From assembly GCA_039630235.1 (NCBI GenBank), contig JBCNVI010000007.1, forward strand, positions 20,365 through 84,364: 64,000 bases of DNA. The letters run 5' to 3'. Positions 17,230 to 42,697 of the stretch are shown piece after piece (the first letter of the stretch is position 1; each line of letters opens with the position of its first letter). A model generated the notes under the pieces. That model made no database searches. It was not told where the DNA came from and saw nothing but the letters and a program-made list of their open reading frames with translations. This stretch comes from Candidatus Hydrothermales bacterium (GTDB lineage Bacteria; Hydrothermota; Hydrothermia; Hydrothermales; JAJRUZ01). The translations under genes were made by a program, and so were the position numbers.

Positions 17230-19278
17230 ATGGATATAAGTAAAATACGTAATATCGGTTTTGCTGCCCATATAGATGCAGGAAAAACTACTACTACTGA
17301 GAGAATTCTTTTTTATACTCACAGAATACACAGAATGGGTGAGGTAGATGAGGGAACAGCTACAATGGACTATATGATTCAAGAAAAAGAAAGAGGAATT
17401 ACAATTCAAGCAGCTGCAACTTTCTGTGAGTGGAAAAATTACTTAATACATATAGTAGATACACCAGGCCACGTTGATTTTACAGTAGAGGTCGAAAGAT
17501 CTTTAAGGGTTCTCGATGGACTTGTAATAATATTCTCAGCAGTTGAAGGTGTAGAACCACAGTCTGAAACTATATGGAGACAGGCTGATAAGTTCAAAGT
17601 TCCAAGAATAGCCTTTATTAACAAAATGGATAGACAGGGAGCTGACCATTTGAGAGTCTTAGGCCAAATCGAAAAAAAATTTAATATTAAACCACTTTTA
17701 CTTGAATGGCCAATCGGCATAGAGAACGATTTTATAGGCGTCATTCACTTCGTTGAAAACAAAAAAATGATCTGGGATAAAGATGAACTGGGAGTCGAAT
17801 ACTCTGTTCTGCCAATAGATAATATTGCCGGAGAAGCAAAAAGCTATTACGAAGATATGATCTTAACTTTGTCAGAAATAGACGAAGGTATTGCAGATGA
17901 ATATTACGAAAAGGGTTTTGTAAGCCCAGATAAAATTAATAGCGCTATAAGAAAAGGAGTCTTAGAGAAAAGATTTTTACCAGTTCTTATTGGTTCAGCA
18001 TTAAAAAATAAAGGTATTCAACCTCTTTTAGATGCAATCTGTGAATATTTACCATCTCCAATAGATAGAGGAAAAATAAAAGGCATAGATCCCTTAACAA
18101 GAAGTGAAATTTATAGAAGTCCTGATCCGAGTGACCATTTCAGTGGAGTTGTTTTTAAAGTTCAAATTTTCGAAGATATGGGTAAGTTATGTTATTTGAG
18201 AATATATTCGGGAAAGATTACACAAGGGGAGAAAGTATACAATCCAAGAACAAATGAAGTTATAAGGGTGCAGCGTCTTTATAGGCTCCATGCAAATAAA
18301 AAGAATGCAATAAGAGAAGCTGTATGTGGTGAAATAGTTGGAATAGTTGGACCTAAAGAGGTAAGAACCGGAGACACTATTTGTCCTCTCGAACACTCAA
18401 TCTTATACGAAGAGATGCTTTTTCCAGAACCTGTTGTTTCACAGGCTATTGAACCGATTTCCTCAAAAGATTTCAAGAAAATAGAGGAAAGACTCAAGTG
18501 GATGGTAGAAGAAGATCCAACCTTCAATTTAAAAATAGATGAGGAAACTGGTCAAATTATAATATCCGGTATGGGAGAACTTCATCTTGAAATTATACTG
18601 GATAGACTAAAAAGAGACCATAAACTTGAATTTAGAGCCTTAAAGCCTCAAGTTCACTATAGAGAAAGTATAAGTTTAAGCGGAGAATTAGTAAAAGAAT
18701 TTAAGAAAAATATTGGTGGGGAGGAGCAGTTTGGTAAAGTAATGTTACAAGTTGAGCCAATTAAAGGAGCAATGAGAAACGAAATATTGATAGATGATAG
18801 TCTCAACCTGAGGGAGGATTTAAAAGAGGTTGCTTATAGCTCTATGAGGGAAATCCTCGATTTCGGTGTAATAGCAGGATATCCCCTAATAGATGTGAGA
18901 ATGGCTCTTAAAAAAGTTTATAACTTGGAGAAAACGACACCGATAGGTCTTAAGTTAGCTATACATGAAGCAGGAAAGGAGCTTATAAAAATGGCAGAGC
19001 CTGTGTTACTTGAGCCGTATTCTTACGTAGAAATAACAGTGCCTGTTGAATTTATCGGAAATGTGATTCAAGATCTCATGCAGCGGGAAGCCGAGATAAT
19101 AGAGAAAGTATCCTTAGAAGGCTCTGATCTTGTAAAAATAGTTGCTGAAATGCCACTGAAAAATACTTTCGGATACGTTACTGTTTTAAGATCACACACA
19201 AAAGGAAAGGCAAATATCTGGATGAAAGTTAGTTCATTTAAGGCAGCTAAACTTGAAAAAAGTGATTTTTTATTATAA
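17230..19278 (+). CDS. fusA: Elongation factor G
   Basis: G1 AHIDAGKTTTTERIL, DTPGHVDF, NKMDR. 682 aa five-domain EF-G in str-operon position. Confidence 0.9.
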   Translation: MDISKIRNIGFAAHIDAGKTTTTERILFYTHRIHRMGEVDEGTATMDYMIQEKERGITIQAAATFCEWKNYLIHIVDTPGHVDFTVEVERSLRVLDGLVIIFSAVEGVEPQSETIWRQADKFKVPRIAFINKMDRQGADHLRVLGQIEKKFNIKPLLLEWPIGIENDFIGVIHFVENKKMIWDKDELGVEYSVLPIDNIAGEAKSYYEDMILTLSEIDEGIADEYYEKGFVSPDKINSAIRKGVLEKRFLPVLIGSALKNKGIQPLLDAICEYLPSPIDRGKIKGIDPLTRSEIYRSPDPSDHFSGVVFKVQIFEDMGKLCYLRIYSGKITQGEKVYNPRTNEVIRVQRLYRLHANKKNAIREAVCGEIVGIVGPKEVRTGDTICPLEHSILYEEMLFPEPVVSQAIEPISSKDFKKIEERLKWMVEEDPTFNLKIDEETGQIIISGMGELHLEIILDRLKRDHKLEFRALKPQVHYRESISLSGELVKEFKKNIGGEEQFGKVMLQVEPIKGAMRNEILIDDSLNLREDLKEVAYSSMREILDFGVIAGYPLIDVRMALKKVYNLEKTTPIGLKLAIHEAGKELIKMAEPVLLEPYSYVEITVPVEFIGNVIQDLMQREAEIIEKVSLEGSDLVKIVAEMPLKNTFGYVTVLRSHTKGKANIWMKVSSFKAAKLEKSDFLL

Positions 19279-19351: not shown

Positions 19352-20566
19352 ATGAGTAAGCCTAAATTTGAGAGAAAGAAGGTACATGTTAATGTTGGTA
19401 CAATAGGTCATATTGACCATGGTAAAACTACTTTAACTTCTGCTATCACAAAGGTGCTATCTAAGTATGGTCTTGCCGTAGAGCAGGAGTATGAGCAAGT
19501 AGCAAAGGCTGATGTTAAGCTCTTTAGGAGGGATGAAACTAAGATTTTGACTGTTAACCTTGCCCATGTTGAGTATGAATCAGAAAAAAGACACTATGCT
19601 CACATTGATTGTCCAGGTCATCATGACTACATAAAGAACATGATAACAGGTGCTGCTCAAATGGACGGTGCAATTTTGGTAGTTTCAGCCGTTGATTCAG
19701 TGATGCCCCAAACAAGGGAACATGTTCTTTTGGCAAGACAAGTGAATGTACCGTATATAATTGTATTCATCAATAAAGTAGACGCAATAGATGACCCTGC
19801 AATAGTGGATCTTGTTGAAGAAGAGGTTAGAGATCTTCTGAAAAAATACGAGTTTCCTGGAGACGCAGTTCCAGTTATAAGAGGAAGTGCTTTAAATGCA
19901 ATGAGATGTGGCTGTGGCAAAAGGGAATGTGAACATTGTGGTAAGATCTGGGAGCTAATAGATGCAATGGATAATTATATTCCGGATCCTATAAGAGAGA
20001 TAGATAAACCCTTCCTGATGGCTATAGAAGATGTTTTTTCAATTACGGGTAGAGGAACAGTTGTAACAGGAAGAGTCGAAAGAGGAATTTTAAGACCCGG
20101 AGATGAGGTAGAAATTGTTGGGTTTGGTCCGACTAGAAAGACTGTAGCTACATCTTTGGAAATGTTTAGAAAAGTTCTTGATGAGGCAAGGGCTGGAGAT
20201 AACGTTGGAGTTCTCTTAAGAGGAATTGGTAAAGATGAGGTAGAAAGAGGAATGGTACTTGCAAAGCCTAATACTATAAATCCTCATACCAGATTTAGGG
20301 CTCAAGTATATGTTCTCACAAAGGAGGAGGGAGGAAGGCACACCCCATTCTTTTCTGGTTATAAACCTCAATTTTACTTCAGGACAACAGATGTAACCGG
20401 TTCAATTAAATTGCCCGAAGGTGTAGAAATGGTAATGCCTGGAGATCATGTTAACCTTGAGGTAGAACTAATGTATCCTGTGGCTATGGAAAAAGAGCTT
20501 AGGTTTGCTATAAGAGAGGGTGGAAAAACAGTTGGTGCAGGAATTATAACTGAAATAATAGAGTAG
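19352..20566 (+). CDS. tuf: Elongation factor Tu (with a Cys4 insertion in the domain-I loop)
   Basis: [41 protein letters not shown]. Thermophile-type loop ..[14 protein letters not shown] preceded by [13 protein letters not shown]. Confidence 0.95.
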
Positions 20567-20571
20567 AAAAT

Positions 20572-20895
20572 ATGCCAATAACAGAAAAGATAAGGATAAA
20601 GTTGAAAAGTTACGATGCAAGACTTATTGAAAAATCGGCAAAAAGAATAGCTTTAACAGCTCGTGGAACAGGAGCTGATGTAAGGGGCCCTATTCCATTA
20701 CCAACGAAAAAAACATTAATAAGCGTAATAAGAAGTCCTTTTGTTCATAAAACTTCAAGAGAACAGTTTTTTTATTGTGTTCATAAGAGATTAATAGAGA
20801 TAATAAATCCGACCCAAGAGACAGTTGAAAAGCTCTCAAAGCTTGATCTTCCAGCAGGTGTCGATGTGAAGATTGAAGTGAGTGTGGAAAGATGA
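20572..20895 (+). CDS. rpsJ: 30S ribosomal protein S10
   Basis: IRIKLKSYDARLIEKSAKRIA..RGPIPLPTKK..SPFVHKTSREQFE-like: canonical S10. Confidence 0.95.
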   Translation: MPITEKIRIKLKSYDARLIEKSAKRIALTARGTGADVRGPIPLPTKKTLISVIRSPFVHKTSREQFFYCVHKRLIEIINPTQETVEKLSKLDLPAGVDVKIEVSVER

Positions 20896-24612: not shown

Positions 24613-25032
24613 ATGCTTCAGCCAAAAAGAATGAAATATAGAAAACAACATAGGGGAAGAAGGAAAGGAAAAGCTATTGATGGGTGTTATCTTGCTTTTG
24701 GTGAGTATGGTTTAAAGGCACTTGAGTCAGCCTGGATTAAGGCAAATCAGATAGAGGCTTGCAGGTTAGCTATTGGAAGATATTTAAAAAAGGGTGGTAA
24801 GTTATGGATAAGGATTTTCCCTGATAAACCTGTTACTAAAAAGCCTGCAGAAACGAGAATGGGAAAGGGTAAGGGAAATGTTGATCATTATGTGGCTGTT
24901 GTTAAAAGAGGTAGAATTCTTTTTGAACTTGCTGGTGTTTCAGAAGATGTTGCAAGGAGAGCTCTTGAGTTAGCCTCTCACAAGTTACCAATAAAAACAA
25001 GATTTGTGACTCAAAAGGAGGGAGGATGGTGA
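24613..25032 (+). CDS. rplP: 50S ribosomal protein L16
   Basis: [44 protein letters not shown]: L16. Confidence 0.95.
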
Positions 25033-25226
25033 AGGCATCTGAACTAAGAGAACTTGATCAGGATGAACTTTTAAGAATTCTAAAAGAATTAAATGAAAAA
25101 TTATTTGAGCTAAGAACTAAGAAAGTTTTAGGTAGTCTTGAGAAACCTACTGATATTAGAAAAGTTAAGAGGGATATTGCGAGAGTCAAAACAGTTCTAA
25201 GAGAAAAATTTGGAAAGAATTATTAG
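25026..25226 (+). CDS. rpmC: 50S ribosomal protein L29
   Basis: [30 protein letters not shown].. L29. The ribosomal cluster ends here; rpsQ/rplN etc. are absent downstream. Confidence 0.93.
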
Positions 25227-25241
25227 AAATTATTTATAAAT

Positions 25242-26294
25242 GTGAAAAAAATTTTAAAATTTTTTGAATTCTTTCTTGGTAATGAGATTGCGATAGATTT
25301 AGGAACGGCGACGACTTTGATTTATCTAAAAGAAAAGGGAATTGTACTTGATGAACCCTCAGTAGTTGCTGTAGAAAGAGAGTCTGGAAAGGTTATAGCA
25401 GTGGGAAACGAGGCTAAGAAAATGTTAGGTAAAACTCCAGGTGAGATTGTGGCAAAGAGGCCAATGAAAGACGGTGTTATAGCTGATTTTGCTCTAGTTC
25501 AAGAAATGCTTCACTATTTCATTACAAAAGTAACTAAAAAGTCCTTATTTGTACATCCAAAAATTTTAATATGTGTTCCCTCAGGAATAACAGATGTAGA
25601 AATTAGAGCCGTAAGGGATTCAGCAATTCAGGCAGGAGCAAGAGAAGTCTATCTTGTTTCAGAGCCTATAGCTGCAGCAGTTGGAATAGGTCTTCCTATT
25701 TCAGAACCCGTTGGAAACATGGTAATAGATATCGGCGGTGGAACTACTGAAATTGCAGTGATTGCACTAAACGGAATTGTTTCAAGTGTCTCTATACGTG
25801 TTGCTGGTGATGAGTTAGATGAAGCAATTATAGAGTATATTAAAAGGAAGTATAACGTTTTAATAGGGGATCAGACTGCTGAAAGGATTAAGATTGAAAT
25901 TGGGAACTGTTTGCCAATTGGGGATGAAAGGGAGATGGAAGTTAGAGGAAGGGATTTAGTAAGGGGTGTTCCCAGAACAATTAAGATAACTTCACAGGAA
26001 GTGAGGGAAGCTCTAAGAGAACCTCTTGCTCAGATAATAGACTCTACAAAGAAGGCTCTTGATAAGACACCTCCAGAACTTTCCTCAGATATTATAGATA
26101 GAGGTATCTATTTGACAGGAGGTGGAGCTTTACTTAGAAATTTGGATGTTTTGATTCAGGAAGCTACAGGTCTTCCTGTGAGAGTTGCTGATGATCCAAG
26201 GACTTGTGTAGTAAGAGGAGCTGGAAAAATACTTGATAACTTTGAAATGTATGAGAAGGTTCTTTTAAAAGAAAGAAAAAAAATATTTGAGTAA
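25242..26294 (+). CDS. mreB: Rod shape-determining protein MreB
   Basis: Actin-fold motifs IAIDLGTATTLIY, DEPSVVAV, VDIGGGTTEIAV, YLTGGGALLRNLD. GTG start only 15 nt after the rpmC stop. Confidence 0.9.
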   Translation: MKKILKFFEFFLGNEIAIDLGTATTLIYLKEKGIVLDEPSVVAVERESGKVIAVGNEAKKMLGKTPGEIVAKRPMKDGVIADFALVQEMLHYFITKVTKKSLFVHPKILICVPSGITDVEIRAVRDSAIQAGAREVYLVSEPIAAAVGIGLPISEPVGNMVIDIGGGTTEIAVIALNGIVSSVSIRVAGDELDEAIIEYIKRKYNVLIGDQTAERIKIEIGNCLPIGDEREMEVRGRDLVRGVPRTIKITSQEVREALREPLAQIIDSTKKALDKTPPELSSDIIDRGIYLTGGGALLRNLDVLIQEATGLPVRVADDPRTCVVRGAGKILDNFEMYEKVLLKERKKIFE

Positions 26295-26946
26295 ATTACT
26301 TTATTTTTTTCTTTTAATTTTTTTTTCGCTTTTAACATTCAGTAAGAAGGTTAGAGGATTTATTGATGAGAAAATTGAAAGTTATGTTTATTATCCTTAT
26401 TTTTTTGCTTATAATGAAATACATTCTTTTTTTTATATAAGGAGTAAAAAGCTTGAAGGTTTAAAGTTTAAACTGAAAAAGGAGGAGGTTCCTCTCTTTG
26501 TTAGTTTTCCTGTATATTATGATGAATTTCCTTATCCAAAAATTCTAATTTTAAAAGGAGAAGGAAAAAAGGGAGATGTAGTTGTAACTGAAAATGCACT
26601 GGTTGGTAAAGTTATAGAGGTTAAAAAGAACTTTTTAAAGGTTAAAACTGTTTTTAATGAGGAATTTAAGTGTTCTTTAATTTCAAAGTATAATCTTTTA
26701 TCTATTTATCAAGGAACCGGTGGAAGATTTGGAATTGTTAATTTTTATCCCACTTGGGGTGAAATAAAAAAGGGTGATACTTTATATACAAGTGGCATAA
26801 CTGAAAATTTTCCTAAGGGTATCCCTGCCTTTATAGTAGACAGTATAATAAAAAAAAGAAGCGATATCTTTTTTGAGTTATACGTTTCTCCTTTGTGGAA
26901 ACCAGAGAAGTATTGTTTATATTATGTTGTCCCACCTTCACGATGA
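26287..26946 (+). CDS. mreC: Rod shape-determining protein MreC (short form)
   Basis: N-terminal TM. Beta-domain with GDVVVTE..GKV.. and YTSGITENFPKGIPAFIV (MreC GD-VVTSG..FP.GIPVG pattern). Position after mreB. Confidence 0.7.
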   Translation: MSKLLYFFLLIFFSLLTFSKKVRGFIDEKIESYVYYPYFFAYNEIHSFFYIRSKKLEGLKFKLKKEEVPLFVSFPVYYDEFPYPKILILKGEGKKGDVVVTENALVGKVIEVKKNFLKVKTVFNEEFKCSLISKYNLLSIYQGTGGRFGIVNFYPTWGEIKKGDTLYTSGITENFPKGIPAFIVDSIIKKRSDIFFELYVSPLWKPEKYCLYYVVPPSR

Positions 26947-27347
26947 ACAATTTTTTAATTTTTGTTTTTAATCTATCTTTTATACTCCCAGTATCAAAAA
27001 TTTTTTTTCCAGACCTACCCATTGATATATCTTTGATTTTTATGTTTCTTATAGTTGTAAATAATCTAAAACCCTTAAGTTTTTTGTATCTCTTTATTTT
27101 TGGAATTTTCTACGATTATTTTTCAAAGGTTCCTATCACTTTCTTTTTGATAGTAACTTTCATGGTTTATTATTACCTTAAGAATAAACTTAACTTTTCA
27201 CTTTTTGTTTTGAAGATTTTTAGGAATGCCTTTATATTTATCCCTCTCACTCTTGTAAAGGGTTTTTCTTTCTTTTTTCTAACTTTTGTTTTTTTCTCTT
27301 TGATTGAAATTATACCATGGAGGAGAATTTTGGAATTAAAATTTTAA
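26943..27347 (+). CDS. mreD: Rod shape-determining protein MreD-like polytopic membrane protein
   Basis: ATGA overlap with the mreC stop. Very hydrophobic 134-aa protein in canonical mreD position. The track ORF start at 26895 is internal to mreC. Confidence 0.6.
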   Translation: MNNFLIFVFNLSFILPVSKIFFPDLPIDISLIFMFLIVVNNLKPLSFLYLFIFGIFYDYFSKVPITFFLIVTFMVYYYLKNKLNFSLFVLKIFRNAFIFIPLTLVKGFSFFFLTFVFFSLIEIIPWRRILELKF

Positions 27348-28924
27348 AATCCTTTTTAATTCTTTCAGTTCTTTTGTTCTTTCTAAAAATTTTTGATTAT
27401 CAAGTTATAAAAGGAGAATTTTTTGAAAAAAAGGCTATTGAGTTTAAGTCTAAAAAGATAAGGATACCTTCTAAGAGAGGAAAAATTTTAGATAGAAATG
27501 GATTAGAAGTAGCGTATTGGCGCACAGGTTTCAGATTATTAAAAGGCGACTCCTTATATAAAGAGGATGTTCAAATGGAGGAAGTCGTTAAGTATTTAGA
27601 AGATCCAGACTCTTCAAAGATTTTTAATGTCTACGCTTTATTATATAGGTATTATCCCCACGAGAATATTTTTGCTCAAACTATTGGCTACACAGGTCTC
27701 CCTGATAAGATAGAGGTTAAAAGAGGGATTGATCCACTTTTAAGAATAGGGAAAACTGGTTTAGAAAAATTTTATGATGATATTTTAAGAGGTACTGATG
27801 GTTTTAAATTTCTTTTGATGGATGTAAAGGGGAAAATTTATAACAGAGAAACAAGACCCCCACTTGAGCCAATTGACGGTAAAGATATAACTGTTAACCT
27901 TGATATGGAACTTGGAAAATATATAGATTCTATTTTTAAACCTTACGGTAGAGGTGCTTGTGTTGTAATGGAGTCTCAGACAGGTGAAGTTTTAGCGTTA
28001 TATTCAAAACCCTCTTATAATCTAAATTATCTTACGGGAAAAACTGAAAAAGAAGAGCTAGCTAAGGTGGTGAATGATTCTTCTAATCCACTTTTAAATA
28101 GATGTATTCAAGGTTTATACCCACCCGGTAGTATCTTTAAAGTTATCACGGCTTTAATAGCTTTAGAAGAGAATTTAATAGATACAAATAAGGTTATATA
28201 CTGTGAGGGATTCTATAAGTTTGGAAACAGAGTTTTTAAAGATTGGAAAGAGGAGGGTCATGGTTATGTAAATTTTTATAAAGCTATAGAAGTTTCCTGT
28301 GATGTTTATTTTTATGAACTTTCAAAAAGGATTGGCTTAAAGAGATTTTTAGATTACCTGGAGAAGTTAAGTATTTTTGAAAAAACGGGAATTGATCTAT
28401 ATGAGGAAAAAAGGGGATTTAGACCAAATCTTGAGTTTTACACAAGGAAATATGGAAAGTATGGGTTTGGTGAGGGAAATGTTTTAAATCTTGGAATTGG
28501 TCAAGGAGAGATTCTTATGACTCCCTTGCAGTTAGCACTCTTATTTTCTTTGATTGCATGTGAGGGTAAAACAAAAACTCCTCATCTTTTGAAGGATTTA
28601 AAGGTGCAGGAGATCGAATTGCCCTTTAAAAAGGAAAATATAAGAACTTTAAAAAGGGCTCTTTTAAGAGTAGTTCATGGAGAAAATGGGACAGGTAGGT
28701 TAAGTTATGTTGCAGGTTTAAAAATCGGTGGAAAAACAGGAACAGCTCAAAATCCATTTGGTGAGGATCATGCTCAGTTTGCCTGTTTTTTCCCTTTTGA
28801 TAATCCCAGGTTTACAGTTTATGTAATTGTGGAGAATGCAGGTAAAGGTGGTGAGATAGCCGCTCCGATAGCTGGAAGGCTTGTTAGTTGGCTCAATGAA
28901 AGATATATTAAGGGTTCAAAATAG
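27317..28924 (+). CDS. mrdA: Penicillin-binding protein 2 (elongasome transpeptidase)
   Basis: N-terminal TM, PBP dimerisation domain, transpeptidase motifs SIFK (SxxK), SCD (SxN-like), KTGTA. Canonical position between mreD and rodA. Confidence 0.85.
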   Translation: MEENFGIKILKSFLILSVLLFFLKIFDYQVIKGEFFEKKAIEFKSKKIRIPSKRGKILDRNGLEVAYWRTGFRLLKGDSLYKEDVQMEEVVKYLEDPDSSKIFNVYALLYRYYPHENIFAQTIGYTGLPDKIEVKRGIDPLLRIGKTGLEKFYDDILRGTDGFKFLLMDVKGKIYNRETRPPLEPIDGKDITVNLDMELGKYIDSIFKPYGRGACVVMESQTGEVLALYSKPSYNLNYLTGKTEKEELAKVVNDSSNPLLNRCIQGLYPPGSIFKVITALIALEENLIDTNKVIYCEGFYKFGNRVFKDWKEEGHGYVNFYKAIEVSCDVYFYELSKRIGLKRFLDYLEKLSIFEKTGIDLYEEKRGFRPNLEFYTRKYGKYGFGEGNVLNLGIGQGEILMTPLQLALLFSLIACEGKTKTPHLLKDLKVQEIELPFKKENIRTLKRALLRVVHGENGTGRLSYVAGLKIGGKTGTAQNPFGEDHAQFACFFPFDNPRFTVYVIVENAGKGGEIAAPIAGRLVSWLNERYIKGSK

Positions 28925-30083
28925 AATCTTAATAATTTATTTACTTATTTCTTTTTTAGGTATATTAAATATTTTTTCAGTCTCACGTTCTTTTGGAAGT
29001 TATCTTTTTATAAGGCATCTAATTTATTTTGGAATTGGATTTTTTTTATTGATTATTTTTAGCAGAATAAGTATACCGAGGTGGAGAGAGTTTTATTATC
29101 TATTTTTTTTAGCTGGTACTTTTTTACTTCTTCTTGTTCTTATTAAGGAGGAAGGTATTAAAAGGTGGCTTTACATAGGAAATTTTTCCTTTCAGGTTTC
29201 TGATGCAGTTAAGCCCCTTTTTATTTATTTTTATTCTATGAACTGTTCATTTATAAAAAATGGTAATTATTTTAAGTCGTTTAAAACTTTTACTCTTTAC
29301 TTAATTCCCTTTTTTCTGATTTTATTTGAGCCTGATCTTGGTTCTGCCCTTTTTTATCTTTTTCTTTTTGGAGTATATGTTCTTGTTTTGAATTTTACTC
29401 TTGGAGTTAAACTCTTTTTTATATTTTCTTTTCTATCAATGATTTTTTCTTTTAATTTTATTAGTTTCTTTGTTTTTTCTGTTGTGTCGTTTTTATTAGT
29501 TTTTTTAATTAAAAGTTTTAAAGCTTCTGATAGGATTTTACTTTCTCTTGCAATTTTGATGCCGGGTTTAACTGTTCCATTTATATACAACAATGTTTTA
29601 AAGGAGTATCAGAGAAAGAGGCTCAAGTATTTTTTAAATCCGGCGGACGATCCAAAGGGTGCAGGTTGGCAGGTTTTGCAGGGTCAACTTGCTATTGGTT
29701 CAGGTGGTGTTTTTGGTAAAGGTTTTTTAAAGGGTTCTCATAAGTCCCTTGCTTTTTTACCGCAGGCTTATTCTGATTTTGCCTTTGCTTCCTTTGCTGA
29801 GGAGTTTGGTTTCTTGGGTTCCCTCTTTTTGATTTTACTTTACTTTTTTTTACTTATTTCACTTTTAAATTTGAGTAAAGAGAAAGAGGGTTTTGAAACT
29901 TTCTTTATTCTTGGGACTTTTTCCTCTATTTTTTACGCCTTTTTTGTAAATATTGGAGGTGTGTTAGGTCTTTTACCAATAACAGGTATCCCTCTTACAT
30001 TTTTCTCTTATGGTGGAACTAATTTTATCATAAACAGTATTCTTCTTGGAGTTTCGCTTTCTTTTACAAGGAAGTCTTATTAA
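28896..30083 (+). CDS. rodA: Rod shape-determining protein RodA (SEDS family glycosyltransferase)
   Basis: SEDS motifs: DPKGAGWQVLQGQLAIGSGGVFGKGF.., SDFAFASFAEEFGF, C-terminal ..PLTFFSYGGTNFI. Start chosen at ATG 28896 (MKDILRVQNRI..), overlapping the end of mrdA. Confidence 0.85.
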   Translation: MKDILRVQNRILIIYLLISFLGILNIFSVSRSFGSYLFIRHLIYFGIGFFLLIIFSRISIPRWREFYYLFFLAGTFLLLLVLIKEEGIKRWLYIGNFSFQVSDAVKPLFIYFYSMNCSFIKNGNYFKSFKTFTLYLIPFFLILFEPDLGSALFYLFLFGVYVLVLNFTLGVKLFFIFSFLSMIFSFNFISFFVFSVVSFLLVFLIKSFKASDRILLSLAILMPGLTVPFIYNNVLKEYQRKRLKYFLNPADDPKGAGWQVLQGQLAIGSGGVFGKGFLKGSHKSLAFLPQAYSDFAFASFAEEFGFLGSLFLILLYFFLLISLLNLSKEKEGFETFFILGTFSSIFYAFFVNIGGVLGLLPITGIPLTFFSYGGTNFIINSILLGVSLSFTRKSY

Positions 30084-30648: not shown

Positions 30649-31432
30649 ATCCTTTATTCTTTTGGTATTTTGCCTTCTTTTACAAGAGAGTCTTATTGAT
30701 CCGATTTTTGTAACAAAGTAGATAGCTTTTTATCTGTGTTAAGTATATGATTTGTTAGCCAATTTTTCATAAAGTACAAAACCTCAATGCTAATTCCAAG
30801 AAGCCTTTTTTCATGTTTATCTAATACTTCTTTAATTTTAGTTTTGAAAAATTCGTGTTCATCTTTATGTTTCTGAAATTCTTGATAGTTATATCTATTC
30901 ATGAAATTTTCTTCGGTGTTAAAATGATATTCCGAGTAGTTTTTAAGTTCATTTAAAACCTTATCAATGATTTCTTTGCCTTTTCCTTGCCACATTGCGC
31001 TATGTAGTTCATTGAGAATCTCAAAAAATTTCTTATGCTGTTCATCAATTTCCCTTATGCCTATAGCGAATTTTTCATCCCACTTTATAAAGCTCATTTT
31101 GTATATTTTGGAGTATAATAATTATAACAAAAATTTTAGCTTTTTTTTTCAAAGATGTTAAAAAAAATTTTTACTTTTTTTATAGTTATACTATTTATAA
31201 TTTTTGTAGTTTCACTTTTAATTTTGTTATATCCTTACAATAAGGCGAGGGTAATAGAGATAGTAAATCGAGTTGGGGTTTGGGGTCCCCTGCTACTGGT
31301 TTTTTTTCATTCTTTTCAAGTAATAGTTGCACCTTTACCTGGCCACGTATTTCCCTTTCTTATAGGTTTTTTTTATGGTTTTATACCTGGAATTTTTCTT
31401 GCAATTCTTGGGAACTTTTTAGGATCATCCTT
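30649..31432. repeat. Copy 2 of the tandem duplication: a non-coding rodA-tail-like remnant, then the intact hemerythrin gene and the intact 5' part of dedA
   Basis: 30655-30699 (..ttcttttacaagagagtcttattga) mimics the last ~40 nt of rodA (..ttcttttacaaggaagtcttattaa). Boundaries are approximate. Confidence 0.7.
30693..31097 (-). CDS. Hemerythrin-like (bacteriohemerythrin) diiron/O2-binding protein
   Basis: MSFIKWDEKFAIGIREIDEQHKKFFEILNEL..YSEYHFNTEENFM..KHKDEHEFF..: HHE cation-binding motifs (H..E..H / H..D..H pattern) of bacteriohemerythrin. 134 aa. Confidence 0.85.
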   Translation of the reverse strand: MSFIKWDEKFAIGIREIDEQHKKFFEILNELHSAMWQGKGKEIIDKVLNELKNYSEYHFNTEENFMNRYNYQEFQKHKDEHEFFKTKIKEVLDKHEKRLLGISIEVLYFMKNWLTNHILNTDKKLSTLLQKSDQ

Positions 31433-37535: not shown

Positions 37536-37567
37536 GGGGGGAAGGATTTCCCCCTTTTTTATTTTTT
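37536..37567 (+). terminator. Rho-independent terminator after the ferredoxin gene
   Basis: GGGGGA/TCCCCC stem (37536-37555) followed by a T-run (TTTTTTATTTTTT). Overlaps the 3' end of the convergent korB-like gene. Confidence 0.55.
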
Positions 37568-38449
37568 ATCAAATATTAACTCTAAAATCTCTTCTTTTTT
37601 TAGTTCTCTTTGCTTTTTAAATTCTTCGACGATTGAATAATCTTCGCTTCCGAAAAGACTAAGTTCGTAATGGTTGCTTTCTTCTATATAAAAAATACCA
37701 ACTGGAATTTTTCCTTTTTTCCATGTGTTAATTATGGACGATATTGCTTCTTCTCTGGAAGAGTAAGGACCATCAAGTAGTTCTATGTTTTCTCTGAAGT
37801 AATCATAGGAATACTCCTCGTTATAAGTCACACAGGGAGAAAGGACATCAATATGTGAAAAACCCTTGTGTTTTAGGGCGGCTTTTATGTATTCCTTAAG
37901 GCTCTTTATATCACCCGAAAAACCTCTTGCTACAAAGGTTGCACCAGCAGAAAGAGATAGTAAACAGGGTTCAATGGGACGATCTTTAGAGCCGTAAGGT
38001 GTGGTTCCCCTTACAAATCCATAAGGTGAGGTAGGCGACACTTGTCCTTTTGTTAGGGCATAAATTTCGTTATTCATTACAATGTATTTAATGTTTATAT
38101 TCCTTCTTGCTGCATGTATAAGATGGTTACCGCCAATACCGTACCCATCGCCATCACCACCAGTTACTATAACATTTAATTTTTGATTTGCTAACTTAAC
38201 TCCTGTAGCAACAGCTAAAAGCCTACCATGAATAGTATGAAAAGCATTAGCATTAATATAATCCGGCAATTTAGATGAACATCCTATTCCACTTACAATA
38301 ACAGTATCAAAGGGGGAAATTCCAAGTTCAAAGAGTGCCTGTTTTAATGCTGTAAGTACTCCAAAATCTCCACAACCCGGACACCATGTACTCTTTTTCC
38401 CTTCATAAATTTTAATATTTTTAATTTCAAAATCTAAGATTTTTTCCAT
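37559..38449 (-). CDS. 2-oxoacid:ferredoxin oxidoreductase beta subunit (TPP-binding) of a two-subunit OFOR
   Basis: WCPGCGDFG Cys motif. GGDGDGYGIGGNH TPP-binding motif. Confidence 0.8.
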   Translation of the reverse strand: MEKILDFEIKNIKIYEGKKSTWCPGCGDFGVLTALKQALFELGISPFDTVIVSGIGCSSKLPDYINANAFHTIHGRLLAVATGVKLANQKLNVIVTGGDGDGYGIGGNHLIHAARRNINIKYIVMNNEIYALTKGQVSPTSPYGFVRGTTPYGSKDRPIEPCLLSLSAGATFVARGFSGDIKSLKEYIKAALKHKGFSHIDVLSPCVTYNEEYSYDYFRENIELLDGPYSSREEAISSIINTWKKGKIPVGIFYIEESNHYELSLFGSEDYSIVEEFKKQRELKKEEILELIFDKK

Positions 38450-38450
38450 T

Positions 38451-40202
38451 TCAACCTTCTCCCTTTATAATTTTTTTTATTTCCCTTACTATTTCAGAGG
38501 GTTTAAAGGGTAAGCCGATGTATTTTCTTAGAGAAAAAACGTTCTCTTTTTTTCCCCATATTCTTGAAAGGTAATTTCTAAGCTGAGAAAATGAATTAAG
38601 TTCGCAAACAAAAACGTTTTTATTAAAGGTCAGTGAATAAATATAATCTTCGTGAAGAGGAAACAAGCTTCTAATCCTAAGATAGGAAAAGTCAAGCTTT
38701 TCTTCATTTAATCTATCTACAGCTTCCCTCATGGGACCTAAAGAGGAACCTATTCCAATCAGAACGTTTTTAGCTTCTTCCCTTCCATAAAGTTCAGGAA
38801 ATGGTAACTCATTAATAATATTTTCAAACTTTCTAATCCTTTTTTCTACCATTTCATTTCTATACTCACATTCCTCATCAATAAAGCCTTCTGGAGTTTT
38901 TTCATTTGAGTTATATCTCACGATTATGCCTTTCTGTCCGGGAAAACCTCTCAATGAAATACCATCCTCAGTTATCTCATATCTCTCATAGGGTTTTCCG
39001 TTTGTCATATAGCTAAGAACCATTTCGTCAGTTAAGATCTTTCCTCTTTCCCAAGTGTAATTTTCGTCATAGGGTATATCATCTATTGTTTGTTGATTTT
39101 GAGAGATTGCCTGCTCTGAGAGAACTATTACAGGAATCTGATATTTCTCAGCGAGATTGAAAGCTTTAAATGTAAATTCAAAACTTTCTTCAGGAGTTGA
39201 GGGTACAAGCACAATACGTGAAACATCGCCATGTCCTGCAAAGAGTATATGGTTTATATCTTCCTGTGAAGTTTTAGTTGGTATTCCAGTGGATGGTCCT
39301 GCTCTTTGGGCATGGTATATCACTAAGGGGACTTCTGCCATAGAGGCAAGAGAGAGTGCTTCAACTTTAAGAGCCATACCAGGACCGCTTGTGGCAGTCA
39401 TAGATCTTATACCGGCAAAGGAGGCACCAATAGCCATATTTATTGAAGCAATTTCATCTTCACCCTGGACTGTTACTCCTCCATACTTAGGTAGATGCTT
39501 TGAAAGGAATTCAAAGACTTCAGTTGATGGAGTTATTGGGTAAGCTGCAAAAAATCGACAACCAGCCGCTATTGCGCCTAAGGCTACTGCTTCGTTCCCC
39601 GAGAGAAAATACCTACCAGAATCAGTTCCCCTTTCAATTTGAAATCTCTCTTTAACTATCTTCTCAGCTAACACATAGCCCTCGGTTAATGCTCTTATGT
39701 TACTCTCAACTATCTTTTCGTCTTTTGCTTTCAAATAAAAAACTATCGTATTTTTGAATTCATCGGGATCAATACTGTATATGTATCCTAAAAAACCAAG
39801 AGCTATAACGTTTTTAAATATTTCTCTTTTAAAAAGCTCTCTTGCTCTTTTTTTAAGTGGGACTGAGTAAATATAAATGTCATTAAGATGAATATCTTTT
39901 AAATCGATTTCTTCATCGACAATAATAACTCCTCCTTTTTTCAAATCACGTGGGTGGATTTTTATCGCTTTCGGTTCGAAGGCAACTAAAGAGTCTATAT
40001 GGTCACCCCAAGAGTAAATTCTTTTTAAATTTGCTCTAATTGTGAGATTTGTAGGCAGACCTCTTATGTTTGAGGGAAAATCTTTTACTGACACAACATA
40101 AAGTCCTCTTCTTTTTAAAGTAAAGGCTAAAATTTCCCCGGCTAAAAGAGAACCATCTCCGGCAAGACCTGCAATTCTAACAGAAAAGTCCGAAAGTTTC
40201 AT
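38451..40202 (-). CDS. 2-oxoacid:ferredoxin oxidoreductase alpha subunit with an N-terminal gamma-like domain (gamma-alpha fusion)
   Basis: N-terminal POR gamma-type domain (IAGLAGDGSLLAGEILA), then the alpha N-domain GNEAVALGAIAAGCRFFAAYPITPSTE. 583 aa. Confidence 0.8.
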   Translation of the reverse strand: MKLSDFSVRIAGLAGDGSLLAGEILAFTLKRRGLYVVSVKDFPSNIRGLPTNLTIRANLKRIYSWGDHIDSLVAFEPKAIKIHPRDLKKGGVIIVDEEIDLKDIHLNDIYIYSVPLKKRARELFKREIFKNVIALGFLGYIYSIDPDEFKNTIVFYLKAKDEKIVESNIRALTEGYVLAEKIVKERFQIERGTDSGRYFLSGNEAVALGAIAAGCRFFAAYPITPSTEVFEFLSKHLPKYGGVTVQGEDEIASINMAIGASFAGIRSMTATSGPGMALKVEALSLASMAEVPLVIYHAQRAGPSTGIPTKTSQEDINHILFAGHGDVSRIVLVPSTPEESFEFTFKAFNLAEKYQIPVIVLSEQAISQNQQTIDDIPYDENYTWERGKILTDEMVLSYMTNGKPYERYEITEDGISLRGFPGQKGIIVRYNSNEKTPEGFIDEECEYRNEMVEKRIRKFENIINELPFPELYGREEAKNVLIGIGSSLGPMREAVDRLNEEKLDFSYLRIRSLFPLHEDYIYSLTFNKNVFVCELNSFSQLRNYLSRIWGKKENVFSLRKYIGLPFKPSEIVREIKKIIKGEG

Positions 40203-40284
40203 ACATACCTCCTTATTTTAAAAATTAATATACAGGATCTTTTTTAAAAATTCAAGTGATTATTAAATTTTATTAATTTTAAAA

Positions 40285-41223
40285 TTAGAAGACTTTTAAA
40301 CCATCAAGCCTTAAGAGTTTCTCCCATTTTTCGTCCACTTTTTTTTGAATTTCTTCGATAAGATCGTCTCTTCCGATTAAATGGCTGAATCTTTCTTGTT
40401 TTAAAAGAAAAGTTTTTACAGGTAATTTTTCTTTAGGCTTATAGTTTACTCTATAGACTCCTTCCTCTATTTCATAGAGTGGCCAAAAACATGTCTCAAC
40501 GGCTAATCTTGCTATTTCAACTGTCTCATCTTCTTTATATCCCCACCCGATAACGCATGGGGCTATTATGCTTATAAACTTGGGCCCCTCAATCTCATAG
40601 GCTTTCCTAAGTTTTCTTATAAGATCTCCCCAATGAGATATAGAAGCTTGAGCTACATAAGGAATCTTATGTGCCGCCACAATTTCTATAATTTCTTTTC
40701 TATCCTGAATTTTTCCAAAAGAAGATTTTCCAGCAGGTGAGGTGGTAGTGCTTGCACCAAATGGTGTTGCAGAGGATCTCTGAATACCTGTGTTCATATA
40801 AGCTTGGTTATCATACAAAACGTAAAGAAAATTATGCCCCCGCTCCAATGCTCCAGAGAGGGCTTGTAAGCCAATATCGTAGGTTCCTCCATCACCTCCT
40901 ATAGCAATAAAAACAATTTTTTTATCTTCTTTAATTTCTCCTCTTCTTTTTAAAGCTTTATATGCCGCTTCAACACCTGATATAACAGCTGCAGCATTTT
41001 CAAAGGCAACATGAATCCAACTGCAGGGCCATGCAGAATAAGGGTAAATAGTAGAGACAACCTCTAAGCAACCTGTGGCATTAGAAACAACTACCGGATA
41101 ATCAGATGATCCTAAGACCATCCTTATAATAGATGGAAAAGAACAGCCCGCACAAGCCCTATGGCCTGATGCAAGCCCTACTGTTCTTTCTGCCAGCTCC
41201 TTTAACGAAAGTATCCTCTTCAT
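40285..41223 (-). CDS. porB: Pyruvate:ferredoxin oxidoreductase beta subunit
   Basis: ACAGCS..; TPP motif IGGDGGTYDIG. Last gene of the porGDAB order. Confidence 0.8.
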   Translation of the reverse strand: MKRILSLKELAERTVGLASGHRACAGCSFPSIIRMVLGSSDYPVVVSNATGCLEVVSTIYPYSAWPCSWIHVAFENAAAVISGVEAAYKALKRRGEIKEDKKIVFIAIGGDGGTYDIGLQALSGALERGHNFLYVLYDNQAYMNTGIQRSSATPFGASTTTSPAGKSSFGKIQDRKEIIEIVAAHKIPYVAQASISHWGDLIRKLRKAYEIEGPKFISIIAPCVIGWGYKEDETVEIARLAVETCFWPLYEIEEGVYRVNYKPKEKLPVKTFLLKQERFSHLIGRDDLIEEIQKKVDEKWEKLLRLDGLKVF

Positions 41224-41228
41224 CTTTT

Positions 41229-42419
41229 TTACTCCCTTAACCCAATATAAATATACTCCTCAGTTATTTTATTTTTCATTCCTATATCTTTTAAAATATC
41301 AAAAACTTTCATAGCATCCTCTATTCCAAACTCTCTGCCACCCAGACCAAAAACAAAACTCTGCACTAAGGGTCTTTTTGATAAGGGATAAAGAGCTGCC
41401 CTTAACTCTATAGACAAAGGTCCTCCCATAGTGCTGAAAGTTTCAGCTCTATCCATAACTCCAACAACTTTCACATTAGTTAGCTTTTCTCTTAAAATTT
41501 CATACGGAAAGGGTCTCATCACCTTTAATCTCAAAACTCCAACCTTCTCCCCCTTATTTCTTAATTCATCCACTACTTCCTTAAACGTACCAGCAGCCGA
41601 AGACATAACCACAACTACTATCTCGGCATCCTCTATATTATATTCTTCAACAAAGGAAGGTACGTTAATACCGAACCTTGCCCTATACTCTTCAAAAACA
41701 TCATTTATTATCTTTTTTGCCTTTATGACTCCTTCAAGTTGATTTCTTTTATATTCAAGATAATAATCAAATAGAGTGAGAGAACCAAGTGTAATAGGTT
41801 TTTCTACGTCAAGGAGCGAGTAGAGGGGTTTTCTTTTTCCAATAAAGCTTTTTACCTCCTCGTCTTCAAGAACAAAAACCTTTTCCATCCCATGGGTAAC
41901 TATGAATCCGTCCATCATAACCATACAGGGCAGGTTTGCTTCTTCTGATATCCTTACGGCATTTATTATAGTATGATAAACTTCGTTTGCATTTTCGCAG
42001 TACATCTGAATCCAACCACAGTCTCTCGAACCCATAGTGTCTGAGTGGTCACAATGAATGTTTAGTGGTCCTGAAAGAGCTCTGTTACCTACTATCATCA
42101 CGATGGGTAACCTCATAGAGGAAGCTATGTAGAGAATTTCATGCATAAGAGCAAGTCCCTGAGAACTTGTTGCAGTTATAACTCTTGCTCCTGAAGCTGA
42201 AGCCCCGATGCAAACAGAAATAGCTGAATGTTCTGATTCTACAGGGATAAATTCTGTGTCTACCTCTCCATCTGCAACATATTTAGAAAAAATCATAACT
42301 ATTTCTGAGGAGGGGGTAATAGGATAGGCAGCTACAACGTCTGGATTTATCTGTTTCATTGCAAAAGCTGCTGCTTCATTACCTGTTTTAGCAACGAATT
42401 TTCTCGTCTCTACTTTCAT
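41229..42419 (-). CDS. porA: Pyruvate:ferredoxin oxidoreductase alpha subunit
   Basis: Start set at MKVETRK.. (AGGAGG RBS; ATGA overlap with the porD stop). ..GNEAAAFAMKQINPDVVAAYPITPSSE alpha-domain signature. Confidence 0.8.
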   Translation of the reverse strand: MKVETRKFVAKTGNEAAAFAMKQINPDVVAAYPITPSSEIVMIFSKYVADGEVDTEFIPVESEHSAISVCIGASASGARVITATSSQGLALMHEILYIASSMRLPIVMIVGNRALSGPLNIHCDHSDTMGSRDCGWIQMYCENANEVYHTIINAVRISEEANLPCMVMMDGFIVTHGMEKVFVLEDEEVKSFIGKRKPLYSLLDVEKPITLGSLTLFDYYLEYKRNQLEGVIKAKKIINDVFEEYRARFGINVPSFVEEYNIEDAEIVVVVMSSAAGTFKEVVDELRNKGEKVGVLRLKVMRPFPYEILREKLTNVKVVGVMDRAETFSTMGGPLSIELRAALYPLSKRPLVQSFVFGLGGREFGIEDAMKVFDILKDIGMKNKITEEYIYIGLRE

Positions 42420-42697
42420 ATCTCTTCCTCCTTCATGCTTATTGCACCTTTTGGACATACGTTGGCACAGATACCGCAACCTTTACAATAATCTAGATCA
42501 ATGCCAATTACCTTTCCTAATTTGACTTTTATAGCAGAATCGGGACAATAAAGAAAACAAATTAAACAATGGGTACAGTCACTTTCTGAAAATAAAGGTG
42601 TTTTTATTCTCCAGTCACCAGTTTTATATTGTGGAGAGGTGGGAGTATTTCTTACAACTCCTCCCTCTTCAAGCTCTTTCCAAGTTTTTAACTTCAT
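42416..42697 (-). CDS. porD: Pyruvate:ferredoxin oxidoreductase delta subunit (2x[4Fe-4S])
   Basis: CTHCLICFLYCPD and CKGCGICANVCPK ferredoxin-like motifs. 93 aa. Confidence 0.8.
   Translation of the reverse strand: MKLKTWKELEEGGVVRNTPTSPQYKTGDWRIKTPLFSESDCTHCLICFLYCPDSAIKVKLGKVIGIDLDYCKGCGICANVCPKGAISMKEEEI

What the first reader, a model, noticed from the sequence alone, without database searches (positions are those of the whole stretch)
19905..19940. EF-Tu carries a Cys4 (C-x-C-x4-C-x2-C) knuckle in the thermophile-specific domain-I loop
The tuf product is canonical except for residues 186-196 ([13 protein letters not shown]), immediately before the conserved KIWEL(I/L)DA(M/I)D(N/E)YIP helix. 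Thermus/Thermotoga-type EF-Tu have a ~10-aa insertion at this position without cysteines, and mesophilic EF-Tu lack the loop. Four cysteines with zinc-knuckle spacing in a bacterial EF-Tu G-domain is unusual. The zinc knuckle of a/eIF2-gamma G domains is a precedent. It could bind Zn for thermostability or act as a redox switch on translation.
Basis: partly seen in the sequence, partly recalled or inferred. Interest (0 to 1): 0.5.

Follow-up and report, generated by a model that had tools for sequence, protein, structure and literature searches.

The report
Conserved four-cysteine loop in EF-Tu
The translation factor EF-Tu encoded here does carry a compact four-cysteine, probably metal-binding, loop, but that loop occurs in EF-Tu of well over a hundred bacterial species from many phyla, including non-thermophiles, so it is a common and apparently unstudied EF-Tu variant, not an oddity of this genome.

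Summary
The tuf gene (19352-20566, +) encodes [13 protein letters not shown] at residues 185-197 (nt 19904-19942), with Cys186/188/193/196 spaced C-x-C-x4-C-x2-C.

The claim that this is unusual does not hold.
- Among the 120 closest database homologues, the loop has four (once five) cysteines in 104 and none in 16. None has one to three.
114 of those hits were EF-Tu genes.
- Their labels include Bacillota, 'Deltaproteobacteria', anammox Planctomycetota, Omnitrophota, Patescibacteria, Actinomycetota, Nitrospirae and others, many from cold or mesophilic habitats.

The loop is therefore neither lineage-specific nor thermophile-specific. It looks ancestral within WOR-3, with later loss.

The aIF2-gamma zinc knuckle sits at a different site (between G2 and G3), so it is only an analogy. 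No solved EF-Tu structure has the loop, and I found no paper describing it.

Most likely it is a structural mononuclear Zn(Cys)4 staple next to the G5 motif. That is inferred: no metal measurement or model coordinates were available.

The protein is not otherwise canonical. Its switch I reads [19 protein letters not shown] instead of IDKAPEEKERGITI.

The parts
19352..20566 (+). tuf gene, EF-Tu, 404 aa, in the str/S10 operon
   Evidence: ORF. Pfam GTP_EFTU, D2 and D3. TIGR00485 660 bits against cut-off 522. AF2 model has TM 0.90 to Thermus EF-Tu-GTP structures. 100% identical to 'MAG: EF-Tu [Candidatus Hydrothermales bacterium]'.
19904..19942 (+). Cys4 loop [13 protein letters not shown] (aa 185-197); Cys186, 188, 193 and 196 at nt 19907, 19913, 19928 and 19937
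   Evidence: The four Cys and Gly187 are invariant in 104 unbiased homologues, while positions 191, 194, 195 and 198 vary freely. Cys count is all-or-none. AF2 pLDDT is 91-96 here, with coil at 187-195 between helices 180-186 and 196-209.
19886..19894 (+). G5 motif S179-A180-L181 (guanine-base contact), four residues upstream of Cys186
   Evidence: G178, S179, A180 and L181 are invariant in alignment A1. The role of G5 comes from established GTPase knowledge.
19943..19984 (+). Helix [14 protein letters not shown] (aa 198-211) that the second Cys pair caps at its N-terminus
   Evidence: DSSP helix 196-209 in the AF2 model. Aligns with KIWELLDAIDEYIP of Thermus EF-Tu.
19499..19555 (+). Non-canonical switch [20 protein letters not shown] (aa 50-68). 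It has a 5-aa insertion, APEE is lost and RGITI is replaced by KILTV, with Thr67 kept.
   Evidence: Alignments to PDB EF-Tu. Conserved in all 37 KILT-type (WOR-3-like) homologues. Only 2 of 114 EF-Tu from other genomes have it. pLDDT is below 50.
19610..19612 (+). Cys87 of the DCPGH (G3/switch II) motif, the only cysteine outside the loop
   Evidence: invariant in A1.
17230..19278 (+). fusA (EF-G, 682 aa) directly upstream; it keeps a canonical ERGITI switch I
   Evidence: Translation.
20572..20895 (+). rpsJ (S10) directly downstream, followed by rplC, rplD, rplW, rplB, rpsS, rplV, rpsC, rplP and rpmC
   Evidence: ORF list. Gene names were assigned from the translations, not by an HMM search.

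Best explanation
This is the ordinary, operon-encoded EF-Tu of a WOR-3 / Hydrothermales (Caldifarciminales) bacterium. The short connector between the helix that follows the G5 (SAL) guanine-binding motif and the next helix is the 'cysteine-plus' version of a variable loop, with consensus C-G-C-[GSA]-x-x-[ED]-C-x-x-C-[GKS].

I infer that the four thiolates bind one structural metal ion, most probably Zn2+, in a very compact 11-residue tetrathiolate knuckle. The first pair (CxC) would sit at the end of helix 180-186. The second pair (CxxC-G) would sit at the N-terminus of helix 196-209. The site would staple the connector and rigidify the base side of the nucleotide pocket.

The loop is old and widespread across bacterial phyla. 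Many lineages have replaced it with cysteine-free loops that are shorter (E. coli type), of equal length (Thermotoga type) or longer (Thermus type). This resembles the C+/C- forms of zinc-ribbon ribosomal proteins and the zinc or non-zinc LID of adenylate kinase.

Shown: presence, all-or-none conservation, wide distribution, and position in the fold. Inferred: metal binding, the identity of the metal, and a stabilising role.
For: - Motif and gene identity.
- All-or-none pattern: 103 homologues have 4 Cys, 1 has 5, 16 have 0, and none has 1-3.
- The Cys and Gly187 are invariant while the intervening residues have entropies up to 2.4-2.9 bits.
- 114 of 120 hits in a truncated genome scan are EF-Tu genes from many phyla.
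- In a neighbour-joining tree with the loop and switch I masked, the 21 Cys4 Hydrothermales-type sequences nest among 16 Cys-less WOR-3 sequences. A Cys4 WOR-3 sequence (L062) is basal and all sister groups are Cys4, so the loop is inherited and was lost in relatives.
- The AF2 model is confident in the loop (pLDDT 91-96) and places it as a coil between two helices, with Cys196 starting the second helix.
- C-E-W-C-G-K aligns with N-E-W-V-D-K of Thermus at the start of the same helix.
- Each sub-spacing has precedents in Zn(Cys)4 or Zn(Cys)3His sites. CxC...CxxCG is seen in the Hsp33 switch domain, sequence confirmed; that these residues bind zinc is from my own knowledge.
Against: - No metal measurement exists and no solved EF-Tu structure has the loop.
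- A CxC first pair and an 11-residue span are atypical for classical zinc knuckles.
- Cys-less EF-Tu, including close WOR-3 relatives at 79-80% identity, evidently function, so the site is dispensable.
- Sequence alone cannot separate Zn from Fe, or a metal site from disulfides.
Confidence: 0.6

Rival explanations
1. The Cys4 site is a redox or metal-release switch. Oxidants would oxidise the thiolates to disulfides and release Zn. The connector next to G5 would then unfold and EF-Tu would be switched off, coupling elongation to oxidative stress, as in Hsp33 or anti-sigma RsrA.
For: The CxC...CxxCG arrangement matches the Hsp33 switch domain (plus my own knowledge of its zinc site). Most carriers have labels of anaerobic lineages: Clostridia-type Bacillota, sulfate reducers, anammox, Omnitrophota. 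This window encodes two 2-oxoacid:ferredoxin oxidoreductase gene sets. Redox control of EF-Tu through another cysteine is documented structurally for Synechococcus (PDB 8ym3/8yly title).
Against: There are no functional data. Carriers also include labels of aerobic groups (Thermoleophilia, Binatia, Gemmatimonadota, Sulfobacillus). A structural role explains the conservation equally well. This rival requires metal binding first, so it extends the best explanation and does not replace it.
Confidence: 0.15
2. The four cysteines bind iron (a rubredoxin-like Fe(Cys)4 site) or an Fe-S cluster instead of zinc.
For: The CxxCG knuckle is also the rubredoxin consensus (my own knowledge). The hosts are mostly iron-rich anaerobes.
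Against: Four Cys within 11 residues, all binding one cubane cluster, would be unusual. EF-Tu has no known electron-transfer role. EF-Tu is extremely abundant, which would make an Fe-S requirement costly. Nothing here was tested.
Confidence: 0.1
3. The loop is a thermophile-specific stabilising adaptation of this lineage.
For: The nearest homologues with the loop are labelled as thermophiles: Hydrothermales, Thermodesulfobacterium, Caldimicrobium, Thermosulfidibacteraceae and Desulfofervidus. The loop occupies the site of the Thermus and Thermotoga insertions.
Against: The same loop occurs in Scalindua, Kuenenia, Jettenia, Pelobacter, Syntrophomonas, Omnitrophota, Saccharibacteria, and groundwater, soil and Arctic-sediment MAGs. 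Classic hyperthermophile-type EF-Tu in the PDB (Thermus, the Thermotoga-like ancestral nodes) lack it.
Confidence: 0.07
4. The cysteines are conserved for a non-metal reason, such as a docking surface for a lineage-independent partner or a covalent modification site.
For: The loop is surface-exposed and next to the nucleotide pocket (inference).
Against: Strict all-or-none co-conservation of exactly four Cys, with freely varying neighbours, is the signature of a joint ligand set and not of a contact surface. No candidate partner is known.
Confidence: 0.07
5. The loop is a sequencing or assembly artefact at 19905-19940.
For: None.
Against: The reading frame is intact. The loop is identical in an independent 95%-identical MAG protein, and more than 200 independent assemblies carry the motif.
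Confidence: 0.01

Closest known systems
Thermus / Thermotoga-type EF-Tu with an extended loop after the G5 motif
   Same: It is the same protein family and the same insertion point, between SAL and the KIWEL/KILEL helix. The second half of the loop aligns: C-E-H/W-C-G-K-I-W against N-E-W-V-D-K-I-W.
   Different: Those loops have no cysteines. The Thermus loop is 5 aa longer, and the Thermotoga-like ancestral node 168 loop is about the same length. They cannot bind a metal through thiolates.
Zinc knuckle of archaeal/eukaryotic initiation factor 2 gamma (for example S. solfataricus aIF2-gamma, PDB 2aho/4m4s)
   Same: It is a Cys4 knuckle inserted into the G domain of an EF-Tu-like translational GTPase.
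   Different: It has two CxxC pairs 11 residues apart, inserted between G2 (RGMTI) and G3 (DAPGH). After G5 (VSAL) aIF2-gamma has no such loop. It is an independent insertion at a different site.
C+/C- forms of zinc-ribbon ribosomal proteins (S14, L31, L33, L36 and others; Makarova, Ponomarev and Koonin 2001, cited from my own knowledge)
   Same: An abundant translation-machinery protein exists in a four-Cys form and a Cys-less form, with all-or-none loss scattered across lineages.
   Different: In those proteins the C- copy is often a paralogue in the same genome, switched on under zinc limitation. Here the duplicate tuf copies I saw are both Cys4 (L038/L118 on one contig). No Cys-less backup was seen, though whole genomes were not examined.
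Zinc-binding LID of adenylate kinase in Gram-positive and thermophilic bacteria (my own knowledge)
   Same: A housekeeping nucleotide-binding enzyme in which a Cys4 structural zinc site in a surface element is present in some lineages and replaced by a hydrogen-bond network in others.
   Different: The fold and position differ, and the spacing is C-x2-C-x16-C-x2-C. Metal binding is experimentally established for adenylate kinase but not here.
Hsp33 C-terminal redox-switch zinc centre
   Same: It has the same order of ligand pairs, CxC followed by CxxC-G (sequence of PDB 1xjh confirmed).
   Different: 30 residues separate the pairs, against 4 here. The protein is an unrelated chaperone. The redox function is proven there and only hypothetical here.

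Membership tests
Bacterial elongation factor Tu | Three-domain architecture: GTP_EFTU, GTP_EFTU_D2 and GTP_EFTU_D3 | tested here: met
   Pfam hits at 4.7e-56, 2.8e-22 and 2.7e-39, covering residues 11-402.
Bacterial elongation factor Tu | Score above the curated cut-off of the EF-Tu equivalog model | tested here: met
   TIGR00485 scores 660.3 bits against cut-off 522.4. EF-1-alpha, SelB and aIF2-gamma models all score below their cut-offs.
Bacterial elongation factor Tu | EF-Tu fold | tested here: met
   AF2 model has mean pLDDT 83. Foldseek gives TM 0.90-0.91 to Thermus EF-Tu-GTP structures 1exm and 1eft.
Bacterial elongation factor Tu | Canonical G1, G3, G4 and G5 motifs (GHxDHGKT, DCPGH, NKxD, SAL) | tested here: met
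   [17 protein letters not shown] and SAL can be read in the translation and are invariant in alignment A1.
Bacterial elongation factor Tu | Canonical switch I / G2 (D-x-A-P-E-E-x-x-R-G-I-T-I) | tested here: not met
   The sequence is [19 protein letters not shown]. Only the Mg-binding Thr (T67) and K52/A53 are retained. This variant is conserved in the WOR-3-type clade, so it is a lineage variant of EF-Tu and not grounds for exclusion.
Bacterial elongation factor Tu | Position in the str operon, fusA-tuf-rpsJ | tested here: met
   fusA at 17230-19278, tuf at 19352-20566, rpsJ at 20572-20895.
Structural Zn(Cys)4 knuckle | Four potential thiolate ligands conserved jointly (all-or-none) | tested here: met
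   Loop Cys counts are 4 (103 sequences), 5 (1) and 0 (16), with none at 1-3. The Cys are invariant among variable neighbours.
Structural Zn(Cys)4 knuckle | The four S-gamma atoms converge to about 3.5-4 A tetrahedral geometry | not testable with these tools
   Structure prediction returned pLDDT and DSSP only, and no coordinate file appeared in /data. Secondary structure (helix, 9-residue coil, helix, with Cys196 at the helix N-terminus) is compatible.
Structural Zn(Cys)4 knuckle | Stoichiometric metal in the purified protein | not testable with these tools
   This is experimental. No solved structure of a Cys4 EF-Tu exists and no paper was found.
a/eIF2-gamma-type G-domain zinc knuckle | Insertion at the same site of the G domain (between G2 and G3) | tested here: not met
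   In PDB 4m4s/2aho the knuckle CESC...CKSC lies between RGMTI and DAPGH. The EF-Tu loop lies after SAL (G5).
Thermophile-specific EF-Tu loop | Restricted to thermophilic organisms | tested here: not met
   Carriers include anammox genera, Pelobacter, Syntrophomonas, Omnitrophota, Saccharibacteria, and soil, groundwater and cold-sediment MAGs. Their growth temperatures are from my own knowledge and from sample names.
Zur-type C+/C- paralogue pair | A Cys-less paralogue in the same genome as the Cys4 copy | tested here: inconclusive
   Two tuf copies on contig JAURAC010000004.1 are both Cys4 (L038, L118). Whole genomes could not be examined.

The most novel reading that the evidence does not exclude
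The Cys4 loop is the ancestral bacterial state of EF-Tu and binds one metal ion per molecule. EF-Tu, the most abundant cytoplasmic protein, would then be the largest single zinc (or iron) pool in a wide range of mostly anaerobic bacteria. It would also act as an oxidant- or zinc-sensitive brake on elongation. Resurrected 'ancestral' EF-Tu proteins, which were built without this loop, would misrepresent the ancestral protein's stability.
Probability: 0.12. Interest if true: 0.75.

Novelty: new variant of a known kind. Interest (0 to 1): 0.4.

Why it matters
EF-Tu is among the most studied and most abundant bacterial proteins, yet all structural and biochemical work uses cysteine-free loop variants (E. 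coli, Thermus, Thermotoga-like). If the widespread Cys4 form binds a metal, three things follow.
- It adds a large, unrecognised term to the zinc or iron budget of many anaerobes, with EF-Tu copy number comparable to the whole zinc quota of a cell (my own knowledge).
- It offers a possible direct link between redox or metal status and elongation.
- It bears on ancestral-sequence reconstructions of EF-Tu used as palaeotemperature proxies, whose solved nodes lack the loop.

For this particular window the finding is modest. It is one ordinary carrier among hundreds. Cultured carriers (Moorella, Sulfobacillus, Caloramator, Desulforudis, Thermosulfurimonas, Desulfocarbo) are better experimental entry points.

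Tried and rejected
- Literature: seven full-text searches found no paper describing a Cys4 or zinc EF-Tu (plus 27 for aIF2). The queries combined EF-Tu with zinc, cysteine, insertion, 'four cysteines', 'zinc knuckle', CXXC and metalloproteomics, and also used the literal peptide strings CGCGK and ECGCG. Subscription-only literature is not covered.
- Thermus loop function: a search for the function of the Thermus loop and two papers read gave nothing usable. A review on aIF2 did not describe the gamma knuckle, so I confirmed its position from the PDB sequence instead.
- Model geometry: I looked for the AF2 coordinate file to measure S-S distances, but none is exposed. Mutant sequences cannot be submitted, so a Cys-to-Ser in-silico comparison was not possible.
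- Representative search: the 50%-identity library collapses EF-Tu into a few clusters. It returned mostly fragments, fusions and organellar proteins. It was useless for prevalence, but it showed that isolated single Cys in other loop types are at a different position (K-C-I-W) and are not remnants of the motif.
- Whole-gene transfer from Thermodesulfobacteria: rejected as the source of the loop in this lineage. With the loop and switch I masked, the protein groups with Cys-less WOR-3 EF-Tu that share the unique switch I. Transfer of a short segment cannot be excluded.
- Zinc-ribbon neighbours: I looked for S14, L36 or adenylate kinase in the window for context. The spc operon is not here, because the S10 operon is followed by mreB.

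Full report
**What is there.** The region lies in a 1215-nt ORF (19352-20566, + strand) between fusA (17230-19278) and rpsJ (20572-20895), followed by rplC and the rest of the S10 operon. The 404-aa product matches the three Pfam EF-Tu domains. It scores 660 bits against the NCBIfam EF-Tu equivalog, cut-off 522. It is 100% identical to a protein named 'MAG: elongation factor Tu [Candidatus Hydrothermales bacterium]'. That order now resolves to Caldifarciminales, phylum Caldifarciminota, in the NCBI taxonomy; the closest homologues are labelled candidate division WOR-3. The window is 33% G+C. It encodes two 2-oxoacid:ferredoxin oxidoreductase gene sets, which fits an anaerobic lifestyle.

**The observation.[13 protein letters not shown] is residues 185-197 (nt 19904-19942). 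The cysteines are residues 186, 188, 193 and 196, spaced C-x-C-x4-C-x2-C. The only other cysteine is C87 of DCPGH.

**It is not an artefact.** A 95%-identical protein from a second MAG has the identical loop. In all, 104 of the 120 best homologues, from many independent assemblies, carry the motif.

**How common the loop is.**
- In the 120 best homologues, which were not selected for the motif, the loop holds four cysteines in 103, five in 1 and none in 16. None has one, two or three.
- I back-translated G-x-A-L-x4-C-G-C-x4-C-x2-C and scanned one genome per species (GTDB).
- 114 of the 120 hits are EF-Tu genes, two of them frameshifted just after the loop. Six are chance matches.
- The record titles include about 32 Bacillota, among them Moorella, Syntrophomonas, Sulfobacillus, Symbiobacterium, Desulforudis, Caloramator and Desulfotomaculaceae.
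- About 25 are labelled 'Deltaproteobacteria', Binatia or Deferrimicrobia. About 10 are Planctomycetota, mostly anammox (Kuenenia, Scalindua, Jettenia).
- Other labels are Thermodesulfobacteria, Omnitrophota, Saccharibacteria/Patescibacteria, Thermoleophilia and other Actinomycetota, Nitrospirae, Nitrospinota, Gemmatimonadota, Chloroflexi, Elusimicrobia, Coatesbacteria, Armatimonadia, Leptospiraceae, a Chitinophagales MAG, an Aquificota MAG and another WOR-3.
- MAG labels can be wrong. One contig is labelled Woesearchaeota.
- Many sources are groundwater, soil, cold marine sediment or bioreactors. Several named genera are mesophiles (my own knowledge).
- The loop is therefore neither rare, nor lineage-specific, nor thermophile-specific.

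**Conservation within the loop.** In the unbiased set, the four Cys and Gly187 are invariant and position 189 is G or S. Positions 191, 194, 195 and 198 vary freely. In the wider genome set the intervening positions reach 2.5-2.9 bits of entropy. The consensus is C-G-C-[GSA]-x-x-[ED]-C-x-x-C-[GKS].

**Position in the fold.**
- The loop starts four residues after the G5 motif S179-A180-L181.
- Compared with solved EF-Tu, it is 5 residues longer than the E. coli-type connector, about equal to the Thermotoga-like ancestral node, and 5 residues shorter than the Thermus loop.
- C-E-H-C-G-K-I-W aligns with N-E-W-V-D-K-I-W of Thermus. The second Cys pair therefore sits at the N-terminus of the conserved helix.
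- An AF2 model built from a 53-sequence alignment has mean pLDDT 83. It resembles GTP-form EF-Tu, with TM 0.90-0.91 to 1exm and 1eft.
- The model is confident in the loop (pLDDT 91-96). It shows helix 180-186, coil 187-195 and helix 196-209.
- Coordinates are not exposed. The key test, whether the four sulfurs converge, could not be done.

**Evolution in this lineage.** In a neighbour-joining tree with the loop and switch I masked, the 38 EF-Tu that share the unusual WOR-3 switch I form one clade. The 21 Cys4 (Hydrothermales-like) sequences nest among 16 Cys-less ones. A further Cys4 WOR-3 sequence (L062) is basal, and the neighbouring clades are all Cys4. The simplest reading is that Cys4 is ancestral in WOR-3 and was lost once or several times. 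The Cys-less relatives have three different replacement loops (QNPxDxEATKP, QNPAPRGQNEWADK, QNPxNYDDPIGAG). The tree is crude, and short-segment recombination cannot be excluded.

**Mechanism.**
- Joint all-or-none conservation of exactly four cysteines among variable neighbours, in a surface connector, is the signature of a shared ligand set.
- I therefore favour a mononuclear tetrathiolate site, most likely structural Zn2+. It would staple the connector next to the guanine-binding G5 element (confidence about 0.6).
- A CxxC-G at a helix N-terminus is classical. CxC pairs binding one zinc are known, with the Hsp33 sequence confirmed and its zinc ligation from my own knowledge.
- Rivals that sequence cannot exclude are a redox or zinc-release switch, which would extend the same site, and iron instead of zinc.
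- The thermophile-adaptation reading is contradicted by the distribution.
- Duplicate tuf copies I saw are both Cys4 (L038/L118). There is no sign of a Zur-type Cys-less backup.

**Comparison with known systems.**
- The aIF2-gamma zinc knuckle offered as a precedent lies between G2 (RGMTI) and G3 (DAPGH) in the PDB sequence of S. solfataricus aIF2-gamma. After its G5 (VSAL) there is no loop. It is an independent insertion and an analogy only.
- The closest functional analogies are the C+/C- zinc-ribbon ribosomal proteins and the zinc or non-zinc LID of adenylate kinase (my own knowledge).
- No PDB EF-Tu carries the loop. The best fragment matches are cysteine-free Thermus chains.
- Seven literature searches found no description.

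**The protein is not otherwise canonical.**
- Switch I (aa 50-68) reads [19 protein letters not shown] where almost every EF-Tu has IDKAPEEKERGITI. It has a 5-residue insertion, has lost APEE, and has RGITI replaced by KILTV. Thr67 is retained.
- This variant is strictly conserved across the WOR-3-type clade, whether or not the Cys4 loop is present.
- Among 114 EF-Tu from other genomes it appears only in a WOR-3 and an Elusimicrobia MAG. It also appears in one cluster labelled Chloroflexota.
- It co-occurs with PGH-H-DY instead of PGH-A-DY in 32 of 40 cases.
- EF-G in the same window keeps ERGITI.
- To a translation specialist this may be the more surprising feature of the gene.

**Verdict.** The loop is a real and probably metal-binding element. 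It is a widespread, probably ancient and apparently uncharacterised EF-Tu variant, not a peculiarity of this genome or of thermophiles. Interest is moderate at 0.4. The general question of whether a large fraction of bacterial EF-Tu are metalloproteins is worth an experiment, but this window adds only one more carrier.

Noticed in passing
window 19499-19555 (EF-Tu aa 50-68): Switch I is [19 protein letters not shown] instead of the near-universal IDKAPEEKERGITI. It has a 5-aa insertion, APEE is lost and RGITI is replaced by KILTV, with the Mg-binding Thr kept. It is conserved in all WOR-3-type homologues and seen elsewhere only in an Elusimicrobia MAG (L029), a second WOR-3 MAG (L062) and one cluster labelled Chloroflexota (P0121). 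EF-G in the same window keeps ERGITI.
   Followed up: partly
window 19622-19624 (EF-Tu His91): The residue after the catalytic His is His (DCPGHHDY) instead of the usual Ala. This co-occurs with the KILT-type switch I in 32 of 40 sequences, which suggests co-evolution of switch I and switch II.
   Followed up: partly
window 25026-30083: The S10 operon stops after rpmC (L29). It is followed directly by mreB, mreC, mreD, a PBP2-like transpeptidase and rodA. rpsQ and the spc operon are absent here. Gene names are read from the translations only.
   Followed up: no
window 37559-43260 (- strand): Two sets of 2-oxoacid:ferredoxin oxidoreductase subunits plus a 2x[4Fe-4S] delta subunit (Pfam POR, POR_N, TPP_enzyme_C, PFOR_II, Fer4), pointing to an anaerobic metabolism.
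   Followed up: partly
window 30693-31097 (- strand): A 134-aa hemerythrin HHE-domain protein, a possible O2 or iron sensor in a presumed anaerobe.
   Followed up: no
window 17230-19278: EF-G is only 682 aa, which by my recollection is shorter than typical bacterial EF-G (about 700 aa).
   Followed up: no
L009 (Acidobacteriota MAG JBBIKI010000118.1), match at 1088-1144: A divergent EF-Tu-like paralogue, 56% identical, with a degenerate G2 (AGVPL instead of RGITI) and RRYDHV instead of RHYAHV. It still keeps the Cys4 loop (CGCGSRSCEKC).
   Followed up: no
L038 and L118 (both contig JAURAC010000004.1, anammox MAG): Two tuf copies about 16 kb apart carry identical Cys4 loops. No Cys-less paralogue was seen where duplicates exist, unlike zinc-ribbon ribosomal protein pairs.
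   Followed up: partly
L027 and L041 (long-read soil MAGs): The EF-Tu reading frame breaks immediately after the Cys4 loop. This is probably a homopolymer or indel error in the assemblies and not a pseudogene.
   Followed up: no
L022, L037, L040, L050, L052, L101, L114 and P0020: Some EF-Tu carry a fifth cysteine. In the L loci it sits two residues after the fourth Cys (C-x-x-C-K-C-I), and in P0020 it is upstream of the loop (GSALKCLQCGC).
   Followed up: no
window 62895-63920: A polysaccharide deacetylase (Pfam PF01522) with an N-terminal Cys-rich stretch, CKRHPEKFLVRKCFRCKREICSSC, resembling a small zinc-finger module.
   Followed up: no
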